NCBI RefSeq assembly: GCF_045037415.1
Contig: NZ_CP173438.1
Strand: one strand, 5' to 3'
Length of the DNA stretch: 64,000 bases
Origin: Escherichia coli
Lineage (GTDB): Bacteria; Pseudomonadota; Gammaproteobacteria; Enterobacterales; Enterobacteriaceae
Within the stretch, counting starts at the first letter, position 1. Each line of letters starts with the position of its first letter. Position numbers and translations under genes: made by a program. The notes beneath the pieces are model-generated. The model was not told the origin of the DNA. It was given only the letters and a program-made list of their open reading frames with translations, and did not search any database. Positions 112 through 2,725 of the stretch are shown here, one piece after another.

Positions 112-645
112 TCCTCACACCTCTTTTGTTATCAATAATTAAAGAGTGTGACAGAAATATGTCATTTTTCCGGGAACAGGTTCGCAAAATGGCTCGTTGA
201 ACGCCTGTTTTTCTATATTCCCCTTTAAAAACAGGCAAGTTTTGACGCAAACTATGCCTGATTAGCCCCGGCCTCGTTTACGCCGCTAATGATTACATCA
301 GTAGCTATAAAGAAAATCAGCGGCGTTACCATTACCAATAAAAAAAGAATGTGAGACTAATAGCAATGGTTTTTAGCACATGTCTTTATCATTAAATTGC
401 ATAACGATTTAAATAGTCGAGTTGTGCATTCCTTTCCTTATTGTTTAACTTGTAAGCATGAGCCAAAAGTTCAGGAGTGAGGTAAATAAAATATGTTCCT
501 CCCACCTTGAGGCAACCTCCCCTCCGCGATGATTTCAATAACATATTCTGTGTTGGCATATGAAATTTTGAGGATTACCCTACACTTATAGGAGTTACCT
601 TACAGGGGTTCCTTCAATTTGTGTTGATTTACGCGAGATAACGCT

Positions 646-1566
646 ATGGAATTAAAGGATTATTACGCCATCATGGGCGTGAAACCGACGGACGATCTCA
701 AGACAATCAAGACCGCCTATCGTCGACTGGCCCGCAAATACCATCCTGATGTCAGCAAAGAACCGGATGCCGAAGCCCGCTTCAAAGAGGTCGCCGAAGC
801 CTGGGAAGTGTTAAGTGATGAACAACGTCGCGCTGAGTATGATCAGATGTGGCAACATCGCAACGATCCGCAATTTAACCGTCAGTTCCATCATGGCGAC
901 GGTCAGAGTTTTAACGCCGAAGATTTTGACGATATCTTCTCGTCAATTTTCGGTCAGCATGCCCGCCAGAGCCGTCAACGCCCCGCCACACGCGGCCACG
1001 ATATTGAAATCGAAGTGGCGGTTTTCCTCGAAGAAACGCTTACTGAGCATAAGCGTACCATCAGCTATAACCTGCCGGTTTATAACGCCTTTGGCATGAT
1101 CGAACAGGAAATCCCGAAAACGCTGAATGTGAAGATCCCGGCGGGCGTCGGCAATGGTCAACGCATCCGCCTGAAAGGCCAGGGGACGCCGGGCGAAAAC
1201 GGCGGTCCAAATGGCGACCTGTGGCTGGTGATTCACATTGCGCCACATCCGCTGTTTGATATTGTCGGCCAGGATCTGGAAATAGTGGTGCCGGTTAGCC
1301 CGTGGGAAGCGGCGCTGGGTACTAAAGTCACCGTTCCAACACTGAAAGAAAGCATTTTGCTGACTATCCCGCCTGGCAGCCAGGCCGGGCAACGATTGCG
1401 CGTTAAAGGCAAAGGTCTGGTGAGCAAAAAACAGACCGGCGATCTGTATGCGGTACTGAAAATCGTGATGCCGCCGAAACCGGATGAAAACACTGCCGCG
1501 CTGTGGCAGCAACTGGCAGACGCCCAGTCGTCTTTTGATCCACGTAAAGATTGGGGGAAAGCATAA
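646..1566 (+). CDS. cbpA: Curved DNA-binding protein CbpA (DnaJ-like co-chaperone)
   Basis: 306-aa ORF; J-domain with HPD motif (KYHPDVSK) near N-terminus; matches recalled CbpA. Confidence 0.95.
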
Positions 1567-1871
1567 TGGCTAATGTTACGGTGACTTTTACTATTACCGA
1601 ATTTTGCCTGCATACCGGCATCTCTGAAGAGGAGTTGAATGAAATTGTCGGTTTGGGGGTGGTTGAACCGAGTGAGATCCAGGAGACAACCTGGGTATTT
1701 GACGACCATGCCGCCATTGTGGTGCAACGCGCGGTACGCCTGCGTCATGAACTGGCTCTGGACTGGCCGGGGATCGCGGTGGCGCTGACGTTAATGGATG
1801 ATATTGCGCACCTGAAGCAGGAAAACCGCCTGCTGCGCCAGCGGCTTTCCCGGTTTGTGGCTCACCCGTGA
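1566..1871 (+). CDS. cbpM: Chaperone modulator CbpM
   Basis: ATG overlaps cbpA stop (TAATG); translation [33 protein letters not shown] matches CbpM; ORF track start moved to the internal Met. Confidence 0.9.
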
Positions 1872-1878
1872 GTTTGTT

Positions 1879-2120
1879 GCCTGATGCGACGCTTAACGCG
1901 TCTTATCAGGCCTACAAAGAGCACTGTTCCCGTAGGCCGGATAAGGCGTTCATGCCGCATCCGGCAACTGCGCCATAATGCCTGATGCGACGCTTAACGC
2001 ATCTTATCAGGCCCACAAAAAGCACTGTTCCCGTAGGCCGGATAAGGCGTTCTCGCCGCATCCGGCAACTGCGCACTAATGCCTGATGCGACGCCTGCCG
2101 CGTCTTATCAGGCCTACAAA
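1879..2120. repeat. BIME: about 2.4 tandem ~101-bp units of alternating REP palindromes (gcctgatgcgacgc...gcgtcttatcaggc and ggccggataaggcg...cgcatccggc)
   Basis: Direct repeat with period 101 bp (unit starts 1879, 1980, 2081); each unit holds two REP-type palindromes; sits between convergent cbpM and torD. Confidence 0.9.
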
Positions 2121-2125
2121 CGGCA

Positions 2126-2725
2126 TTATCTTTTTTGGTAGTCACACTCCACTAACACCAGCAATAACTGGCTTAGTGCCGCGTAAAAACCAAAGCTGTC
2201 ATACTGTCGACAACGCGCAGCAAACTCTGGTAACCATTCCCGCAGAGCCGTCAGTGTTTTTTGCCGCAAACCGTCGATTCTTCGCGCAGGAACGGTCCCC
2301 TCTCCCAGCGAAAAATGCAGATGACTCAACAAATCGAGATAGATCGCCAGATGATCTGCCGGTTCGTTGAAATTGCCGCTGGTTTCCATCCCCGCCTCAA
2401 CTAACAAGCGTTTAATCTCTTGCTCGTCCTGTTTGTAGGCCGATGCATACGGCAGCGCCGCTTGTTTGTCGGTCATCAGAAACAGGCCGCAAAAGTCAGC
2501 GGCCAGTTCCAGACGGGCATCGTCACGTACTGTCAGAGTGGCAATACTGTTTTCCAGCCCATTCACCGCCGCAGTGAGCGGCGGTTCGCTTTTCAGCAAC
2601 GAAAACCATTCAGCCATCTGCGCACTGGCGATTTGCGTCAGTTGTTCATCGTCCAGTTCACGGGAGAACAACTGCGCCAGCCAGGCGTAAACACAGGCAA
2701 TCTGTTGTGCTGTCAGCGTGGTCAT
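2126..2725 (-). CDS. torD: TorA-specific chaperone TorD
   Basis: ORF translation from [20 protein letters not shown] matches TorD (199 aa); start overlaps torA stop (ATGA). Confidence 0.9.

What the first reader, a model, noticed from the sequence alone, without database searches (positions are those of the whole stretch)
1879..2120. Tandem 101-bp BIME array filling the gap between convergent cbpM and torD
About 2.4 near-identical copies of a 101-bp unit, each holding two REP palindromes of opposite type, occupy the entire 254-bp gap between the convergent operon ends. BIMEs bind IHF and DNA gyrase and can act as transcription or mRNA-decay barriers. Copy number at such arrays varies between strains, so it is a useful strain marker and a potential site of recombination.
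Basis: seen in the sequence. Interest (0 to 1): 0.15.

Follow-up and report, generated by a model that had tools for sequence, protein, structure and literature searches.

The report
Known REP/BIME-2 repeat array, cbpM–torD
The 254-bp gap between the convergent E. coli genes cbpM and torD is filled by an ordinary, already well-described kind of bacterial repeat (a BIME-2 array of five REP hairpins) whose copy number differs between E. coli lineages.

Summary
Tandem Repeats Finder reports 1878-2120, period 101, 2.4 copies, 91% matches. The cbpM-torD gap is exactly 254 bp (1872-2125). The array holds five REP palindromes in alternating orientation, Z2-Y-Z2-Y-Z2. That is the definition of a BIME-2.

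- IHF binding belongs to BIME-1 (the L linker). No IHF consensus occurs in this array.
- Published Topo-seq found no gyrase cleavage at the K-12 allele of this locus.
- Copy number does vary, with gaps of 92, 151/153, 254 and 355/356 bp. It tracks lineages and is not hypervariable.

Additional findings:
- Two units pass Rfam's naRNA4 threshold on the cbpM-sense strand.
- One genome carries the REP-specific IS1397 in a hairpin loop of this array.
- K-12 Term-seq places a torCAD-sense 3' end just past the outermost hairpin.
- A Rho termination region for the cbpAM sense lies inside antisense torD.

Most likely role: the array is a shared 3'-UTR hairpin block. It protects both convergent transcripts from 3' exonucleases after Rho termination. 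It may also damp cbpM and torD translation, because hairpins start 7 and 12 nt after the stop codons.

Verdict: already known, low interest.

The parts
1566..1871 (+). cbpM coding sequence (chaperone modulator, MerR_2 domain), last gene of cbpAM. Its stop codon TGA lies at 1869-1871.
   Evidence: ORF. Pfam MerR_2 at E = 3.2e-27. RefSeq annotation of the identical SK1144 sequence.
1879..1915 (+). REP 1, Z2 type (CTAC foot at 1912-1915). The stem starts 7 nt after the cbpM stop codon.
   Evidence: Pattern match with 0 mismatches. RNA hairpin -21.3 kcal/mol on + and -21.8 on -. DNA hairpin -11.5 kcal/mol.
1916..1931 (.). Tail-to-tail linker, 16 nt (AAAGAGCACTGTTCCC).
   Evidence: Read from the sequence. 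It differs from the corresponding REP325 linker.
1932..1965 (-). REP 2, Y type (GTAG on the + strand at 1932-1935).
   Evidence: Pattern match with 0 mismatches. Hairpin -19.1 / -19.5 kcal/mol.
1966..1979 (.). Head-to-head linker (AACTGCGCCATAAT).
   Evidence: Read from the sequence.
1980..2016 (+). REP 3, Z2 type. Its foot is CCAC instead of CTAC, and it has one G>A change in the stem.
   Evidence: Hairpin -15.5 kcal/mol on + and -20.0 on -.
2017..2032 (.). Tail-to-tail linker, second copy.
2033..2066 (-). REP 4, Y type.
   Evidence: Hairpin -21.4 / -21.3 kcal/mol.
2067..2080 (.). Head-to-head linker, second copy (AACTGCGCACTAAT).
2081..2117 (+). REP 5, Z2 type. On the - strand its stem starts 12 nt after the torD stop codon.
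   Evidence: Hairpin -21.0 / -21.9 kcal/mol.
1935..2013 (+). Y-linker-Z2 unit that matches Rfam RF02564 (naRNA4) over the full model.
   Evidence: 75.2 bits against a gathering score of 59.5.
2036..2114 (+). Second Y-linker-Z2 unit that matches Rfam RF02564 (naRNA4).
   Evidence: 81 bits against a gathering score of 59.5.
2126..2725 (-). torD coding sequence (TorA-specific chaperone), last gene of torCAD. Its stop codon lies at 2128-2126.
   Evidence: ORF. Pfam Nitrate_red_del at E = 2.1e-24. RefSeq annotation.

Best explanation
This is a BIME-2 element, a tandem array of E. coli repetitive extragenic palindromes. It has five REPs (Z2-Y-Z2-Y-Z2), equal to 2.4 units of 101 bp. It forms the shared 3' untranslated region of the convergent operons cbpAM (+ strand) and torCAD (- strand).

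Most likely mode of action, at the RNA level:
1. RNA polymerase from either side transcribes into and through the array. No intrinsic terminator is present.
2. Rho terminates transcription further downstream, inside the antisense of the opposite gene.
3. 3'->5' exonucleases trim the RNA back to the stable REP hairpins (-15 to -22 kcal/mol each). These hairpins then define and protect the mRNA 3' end.
4. The first hairpin begins 7 nt after the cbpM stop and 12 nt after the torD stop. The hairpins may therefore also impede terminating ribosomes and damp translation of these two genes.

The array itself is a non-autonomous repeated element. Its length changes by in-register unequal exchange between the 101-bp units and by deletion between short repeats.

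Shown here: the anatomy, the BIME-2 type, the hairpin stability, the allele series, and the K-12 3'-end and Rho data. Inferred: the exonuclease block and the translational effect in this strain.
For: - Anatomy and type. The BIME-2 definition (Y + Z2, multiple tandem copies, short linkers, copy number variable between strains) is in PMC3333891.
- No terminator-like or promoter-like site lies inside 1872-2125.
- The hairpins are strong on both strands.
- K-12 Term-seq (PMC7815308 supplementary file 1) lists a dominant 3' end at 1062547 (+) in two of three conditions. That is torCAD-sense, 6-7 nt past the outermost REP hairpin, with no U-tract, abutting the cbpM stop. The position was checked on the sequence.
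- The same study lists a Rho termination region at 1062039 (-), which is cbpAM-sense RNA inside antisense torD. Rho score 6.5, P = 2e-9 (supplementary file 2).
- The general model of Rho termination followed by trimming to REP hairpins is in PMC6061677.
[quoted passage not shown] 2015, as summarised in PMC12306157.
- Only 1 of the 12 differences among the copies lies in a stem, against 6.0 expected (P = 0.002).
- Every allele, including the 92-bp one, keeps a hairpin next to each stop codon.
- Expansions are exact 101-bp steps with mosaic units.
Against: - All transcript data come from the K-12 allele (3 REPs, first REP degenerate), not from the 5-REP allele in the window.
- No 3' end was called for the cbpAM sense inside the array.
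- About a third of sampled genomes manage with two hairpins, so the extra units may be functionally neutral.
- The stem conservation could partly reflect recent duplication or gene conversion rather than selection.
- The translational effect is inferred from a distance rule alone.
Confidence: 0.75

Rival explanations
1. DNA-level role. The array is a strong, transcription-independent DNA gyrase site that removes positive supercoils accumulating between the convergent cbpAM and torCAD operons.
For: Gyrase cleavage sites are significantly over-represented in BIME-2 elements, preferentially in Y REPs (PMC6379681). The array sits between convergent transcription units. The REPs can extrude as DNA hairpins at -8.5 to -13.1 kcal/mol.
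Against: Table DS3 of the same study lists the K-12 allele of this locus, and it has 0 cleavage sites with ciprofloxacin, rifampicin + ciprofloxacin, microcin B17 and oxolinic acid. The entry is BIMEs2 1063952-1064085, which equals MG1655 1062407-1062540. The offset of 1545 was verified on five REP loci. Only a subset of BIME-2 elements is cleaved. The 5-REP allele is untested.
Confidence: 0.12
2. The cbpAM-sense transcript of the array yields naRNA4-like nucleoid-associated RNAs. Together with HU, these bridge REP cruciforms and help condense the nucleoid.
For: Two + strand units pass the curated Rfam threshold for naRNA4 (81 and 75.2 bits against 59.5). The architecture is the same as REP325: Y and Z2 REPs with short linkers, in tandem units of 100 bp against 101 bp. 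K-12 data show cbpAM-sense transcription through the array.
Against: The Rfam model hits any BIME-2 unit. It hits the K-12 and O157 alleles and an unrelated phnE-phnD unit at 69-73 bits, whereas REP325 scores 95-111. The unit is 83% identical to REP325, and the differences are concentrated in the linkers. The function has been shown only for REP325 (PMC4550694). About a third of genomes have an allele with no unit above threshold.
Confidence: 0.07
3. Selfish or neutral DNA. The array is a passenger repeat, spread by the REP-associated transposase TnpA_REP/RAYT and by recombination, with no function at this locus.
For: There are four size classes and several internal structures among genomes, including a deletion to two hairpins in about 34% of sampled genomes. 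An IS1397 insertion is also tolerated. TnpA_REP cleaves and recombines BIMEs in vitro (PMC3333891).
Against: A hairpin next to each stop codon is kept in every allele. Differences between copies avoid stems. A dominant Term-seq 3' end sits at the outermost hairpin in K-12, so the element at least shapes the torCAD transcript.
Confidence: 0.2
4. The array is a bidirectional intrinsic (Rho-independent) transcription terminator.
For: There are GC-rich hairpins at the ends of two operons.
Against: No hairpin is followed by a U-tract, and the terminator scan found no site within 1872-2125 on either strand. The K-12 3' end is followed by AAACACA. The Rho-dependent region for the cbpAM sense lies about 360 nt beyond the array.
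Confidence: 0.03

Closest known systems
BIME-2 family of E. coli REP clusters (Gilson/Bachellier/Hofnung nomenclature; Ton-Hoang et al. 2012, PMC3333891)
   Same: It has alternating Y and Z2 REPs with GTAG/CTAC feet and an internal stem mismatch. The linkers are short, the unit of about 100 bp is tandemly repeated, the location is intergenic at 3' ends of genes, and copy number varies between strains.
   Different: Nothing essential differs. The linkers are locus-specific, as is usual for BIME-2. One Z2 copy has CCAC in place of CTAC.
REP325 / naRNA1-6 array between yjdM and yjdN (Rfam RF02564; Qian et al. 2015, PMC4550694)
   Same: It has the same Y and Z2 unit architecture. The period is 100 bp against 101 bp. 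Two units here pass the Rfam gathering score.
   Different: REP325 has 5.8 copies at 96% identity. The unit here is 83% identical to it and the linkers diverge. Scores here are 75-81 bits against 95-111 for REP325. HU binding and nucleoid effects have never been shown for this locus.
K-12 MG1655 allele of the same locus (torD-cbpM REP cluster, 1062407-1062540)
   Same: It occupies the same position between the same genes. It has the same Y REP and the same torD-proximal Z2 REP, and it gives one naRNA4-model hit.
   Different: The K-12 gap is 151 bp with 3 REPs. The cbpM-proximal REP is a short, degenerate Y-headed palindrome rather than a Z2. The flanking spacers also differ.
BIME-1 / RIP / RIB elements (IHF-binding REP pairs)
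   Same: It contains a Y REP, is a pair of inverted REPs, and lies at 3' ends of transcription units.
   Different: BIME-1 has Z1 rather than Z2, a long L linker carrying the IHF site, and occurs as a single copy. None of these features is present here.

Membership tests
REP (E. coli repetitive extragenic palindrome) | An imperfect palindrome of 30-40 nt with a conserved GTAG/CTAC tetranucleotide at its foot and a mismatch within the stem. | tested here: met
   Five matches to the REP pattern with 0 mismatches. Four have CTAC/GTAG and one has CCAC. The predicted hairpins carry an internal mismatch or bulge.
REP (E. coli repetitive extragenic palindrome) | Extragenic location. | tested here: met
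   All five lie in 1872-2125, between the stop codons of cbpM and torD.
BIME-2 | Composed of Y and Z2 REPs in alternating orientation. | tested here: met
   The order is Z2(+), Y(-), Z2(+), Y(-), Z2(+). The definition is in PMC3333891.
BIME-2 | Multiple tandem copies with short linkers. | tested here: met
   2.4 copies of a 101-bp unit, with linkers of 14 and 16 nt.
BIME-2 | Copy number at a locus varies between strains, while the copies within one locus are alike. | tested here: met
   Gaps of 92, 151/153, 254 and 355/356 bp occur in E. coli complete genomes. Copies within the window are 89-93% identical.
BIME-2 | Bound and cleaved by DNA gyrase in vivo. This is a property of a subset of the family, not a definition. 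| tested here: inconclusive
   Published Topo-seq found 0 cleavage sites at the K-12 3-REP allele in four conditions. No data exist for the 5-REP allele.
BIME-1 (IHF-binding RIP/RIB) | A Y + Z1 pair separated by a long L linker that carries an IHF site, present as a single copy. | tested here: not met
   There is no Z1 REP. No WATCAANNNNTTR match occurs in the array. The array is tandemly repeated.
Rfam RF02564 naRNA4 | Covariance-model score at or above the curated gathering score of 59.5 bits. | tested here: met
   81 bits (2036-2114 +) and 75.2 bits (1935-2013 +). The minus-strand matches at 52.7 and 46.3 bits fall below threshold.
Rfam RF02564 naRNA4 | The RNA product binds HU and promotes nucleoid condensation. 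| not testable with these tools
   This has been shown only for REP325 (PMC4550694).
Intrinsic terminator | A GC-rich hairpin immediately followed by a U-tract. | tested here: not met
   The scan reports no terminator-like site in 1872-2125 on either strand.
Translation-regulating REPs (Liang, Rudd & Deutscher 2015) | The REP lies fewer than 16 nt downstream of the stop codon. | tested here: met
   The distance is 7 nt for cbpM (stop ends at 1871, stem starts at 1879). It is 12 nt for torD (stop at 2128-2126, stem starts at 2113). Sources are, and the rule is as summarised in PMC12306157.
Translation-regulating REPs (Liang, Rudd & Deutscher 2015) | Ribosome stalling and tmRNA-dependent reduction of the upstream protein. 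| not testable with these tools
   No data could be found for cbpM or torD. The original paper is not held in the library.

The most novel reading that the evidence does not exclude
The number of naRNA4-like Y-linker-Z2 units at the 3' end of cbpAM is a lineage-specific dosage, from 0 to 3 units depending on allele. cbpAM encodes the stationary-phase nucleoid protein CbpA. In this reading, processed fragments of the cbpAM 3' UTR would act with HU on REP cruciforms. Nucleoid compaction, or cbpAM/torCAD expression through antisense overlap of the two 3' UTRs, would then differ between B2-type strains (2-3 units) and B1-type strains (0 units).
Probability: 0.05. Interest if true: 0.4.

Novelty: already known. 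Interest (0 to 1): 0.1.

Why it matters
It matters little beyond correct annotation. REP/BIME-2 arrays are a textbook feature of E. coli intergenic regions, and this locus already appears in published BIME tables for K-12.

The points of practical use are these:
- Gene callers should ignore the 77-aa and 94-aa ORFs that overlap the array.
- The gap length (92, 151/153, 254 or 355/356 bp) is a simple lineage-level PCR marker.
- IHF and gyrase binding should not be assumed for this element.
- The two convergent operons share a fully overlapping, highly structured 3' UTR. This is relevant to anyone measuring cbpAM or torCAD mRNA stability.

Tried and rejected
- IHF site: the consensus scan gave 4 hits in the window and none in the array, so this was rejected for this element.
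- Intrinsic terminators or internal promoters in the array: none found.
- Coding potential of the overlapping ORFs (1915-2145 on the - strand, 77 aa; 2086-2367 on the + strand, 94 aa): no Pfam family reaches its cut-off, so these are treated as spurious.
- The repeat finder reported 0 inverted repeats with the default 9-nt seed. This is a tool limitation, because the REP stems are interrupted by a mismatch. The hairpins were confirmed by folding.
- Gyrase site: the K-12 allele is negative in published Topo-seq.
- Supplements of Dar & Sorek 2018 and Ton-Hoang 2012, and the Liang et al. 2015 paper itself, are not held. The under-16-nt rule is therefore cited second-hand.
- Census: I did not obtain an exact count for all 5,426 genomes, because the search tool lists at most 60 rows. 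The frequencies come from two evenly spaced samples of 40 and 60 rows.
- Expensive scans: I did not run the genome contigs or metagenome scans to look outside E. coli. The answer would not change the verdict.

Full report
**Observation.**
- Tandem Repeats Finder gives a single array at 1878-2120 with period 101, 2.4 copies, 91% matches, no indels and score 416.
- The repeat finder places the copies at 1878-1978, 1979-2079 (93% identical) and a partial copy at 2080-2125 (89%).
- The flanking ORFs are cbpM and torD. cbpM lies on the + strand, has a Pfam MerR_2 domain, and ends at 1871. torD lies on the - strand, belongs to the Nitrate_red_del family, and ends at 2126.
- Both ORFs are annotated that way in RefSeq genomes that are 100% identical over 1572-2425, such as strain SK1144.
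- The gap is therefore 1872-2125, or 254 bp. The array fills it apart from 6 nt on the left.

**Anatomy.** A REP pattern finds five palindromes with no mismatches.
- They are Z2 at 1879-1915 (+), Y at 1932-1965 (-), Z2 at 1980-2016 (+), Y at 2033-2066 (-) and Z2 at 2081-2117 (+).
- They are joined alternately by a 16-nt tail-to-tail linker and a 14-nt head-to-head linker.
- Only one other clear REP (14897-14932) occurs in the 64-kb window.
- The REP head motif is found 11 times against 1.04 expected from shuffles.
- Each REP folds into a strong hairpin on either strand, at -15.5 to -21.9 kcal/mol as RNA and -8.5 to -13.1 kcal/mol as DNA.
- The whole gap folds far better than shuffles, with z = -8.0 on the + strand and -9.0 on the - strand.
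- Of the 12 differences among the copies, only one lies in a stem, where 6.0 would be expected (P = 0.002). The rest lie in loops, linkers and one foot tetranucleotide.

**Classification.** Ton-Hoang et al. (PMC3333891) define the two main families.
- BIME-2 consists of Y plus Z2 REPs, in multiple tandem copies, with short linkers that vary between loci, and a copy number that varies between strains.
- BIME-1 consists of a single Y plus Z1 pair separated by a long L linker that carries the IHF site.
- This array meets every BIME-2 criterion and none of the BIME-1 criteria. The IHF consensus WATCAANNNNTTR has no match in the array.
- Rfam holds a model built on the best-studied BIME-2 array, REP325/naRNA4 (RF02564). 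Two + strand units here pass its gathering score of 59.5, with 81 bits at 2036-2114 and 75.2 bits at 1935-2013.
- The same model hits the K-12 allele once, the O157 allele once, the 3.4-copy allele three times and an unrelated phnE-phnD unit. These hits score 69-81 bits, whereas REP325 itself scores 95-111.
- The Rfam hit therefore restates 'BIME-2 unit' and is not evidence for naRNA4 function.
- The unit here is 83% identical to the REP325 unit, and the divergence is concentrated in the linkers.

**Variation between genomes.** I ran two megablast searches of 5,426 complete E. coli genomes, with rows sampled at even steps down the ranking. They give four size classes.

| Gap length | Share in 60-row sample | Share in 40-row sample | Example genomes |
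|---|---|---|---|
| 92 bp | about 34% | about 33% | O26, O103 |
| 151/153 bp | about 44% | about 44% | K-12 151 bp; O157/O55 153 bp |
| 254 bp (this window) | about 12% | about 13% | ST131 (identical to the window) |
| 355/356 bp | about 9% | about 10% | |

- No longer allele appeared in either sample.
- Reading the alleles shows that the 254-to-355 steps are exact 101-bp insertions. There are at least three different internal structures built from mosaic units, for example a unit with the left part of unit 2 and the right end of unit 1. Recurrent in-register unequal exchange predicts exactly this pattern.
- The 151-bp alleles have a short, degenerate first REP.
- The 92-bp allele is a 151-type allele that lost 59 bp between CGCATC repeats. 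The deletion created a chimeric hairpin.
- Every allele retains one hairpin next to each stop codon.
- Alleles follow lineages and are not hypervariable. Within the sampled rows, flank identity predicts the size class.
- One genome, WCHEC040047, carries IS1397 inserted in the loop of the torD-proximal Z2 REP, with TAA(A) duplicated. IS1397 is known to insert specifically into REPs (PMC1525189).

**Function: what published K-12 data say about this locus.**
- Adams et al. 2021 (PMC7815308) list a curated dominant Term-seq 3' end at 1062547 (+) in two of three growth conditions. On the sequence, this end is torCAD-sense, lies 6-7 nt past the outermost REP hairpin, is followed by no U-tract, and sits two bases before the cbpM stop codon on the other strand.
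- Their bicyclomycin data list a Rho termination region at 1062039 (-). This is cbpAM-sense RNA about 360 nt inside antisense torD, with Rho score 6.5 and P = 2e-9.
- Both transcripts therefore cross the array. It is not a transcription barrier, and it contains no intrinsic terminator.
- This fits the established model in which Rho terminates downstream and exonucleases trim back to REP hairpins (PMC6061677).
- For gyrase, table DS3 of Sutormin et al. (PMC6379681) has the entry 'BIMEs2 1063952-1064085' with 0 cleavage sites in all four conditions. I verified that this entry is the torD-cbpM array. A constant offset of 1545 maps five neighbouring table entries exactly onto REPs in MG1655.
- The hairpins start 7 nt after the cbpM stop and 12 nt after the torD stop. 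Both distances fall inside the under-16-nt window in which REPs were reported to lower translation of the upstream gene (Liang et al. 2015, as summarised in PMC12306157). That effect is inferred here and was not tested.

**Verdict.** The generic protein-binding claims need correcting for this subtype and locus. The element is an ordinary, already described kind of feature. The most probable role is a shared, bidirectional 3'-UTR hairpin block that stabilises mRNA 3' ends and possibly damps translation. Extra units are probably near-neutral. Interest is low.

Noticed in passing
L008 3597-4945 (E. coli WCHEC040047, NZ_CP043295.1): IS1397 is inserted in the loop of the torD-proximal Z2 REP of this same intergenic array. 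TAA(A) is duplicated at the junctions. This is a natural example of REP-targeted IS insertion at this locus.
   Followed up: yes
window 392-493 (-), upstream of cbpA: Window-type genomes such as SK1144 have only a short annotated pseudogene remnant between agp and cbpA. K-12, O157 and other genomes carry an intact 1257-bp yccE gene there.
   Followed up: partly
L006 1801-1892 and related 692-bp-span alleles: About a third of sampled E. coli genomes have a 92-bp gap. It derives from the 151-bp allele by a 59-bp deletion between CGCATC repeats. The deletion fuses the 5' arm of the first REP to the 3' arm of the Y REP, giving a new chimeric hairpin.
   Followed up: yes
window 14897-14932 (+): This is a solitary Z2-like REP (GCCTGATGCGACGCTAATGCGCCTCATCAGGCTTAC). 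It is the only other clear REP in the 64-kb window.
   Followed up: no
window 12796-13218 (-): Rfam gives a cspA-thermoregulator match at 160 bits. By synteny with K-12, this is probably the cspG 5' UTR and start.
   Followed up: no
window 50571-50644 (-) and 23764-23851 (+): A PyrD leader scores 97.9 bits, and a tRNA-Ser (anticodon TGA) is present. Both are routine features consistent with the K-12 pyrD-serT-torCAD region.
   Followed up: no
L009 1250-1330 (+) (MG1655, between phnE and phnD): Another single BIME-2 unit passes the Rfam naRNA4 threshold at 69.1 bits. This shows that RF02564 recognises generic BIME-2 units outside REP325.
   Followed up: partly
window 1915-2145 (-) and 2086-2367 (+): Mechanical ORFs of 77 and 94 aa run through the REP array. 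They have no Pfam support above cut-off and are likely sources of spurious 'hypothetical protein' calls.
   Followed up: yes
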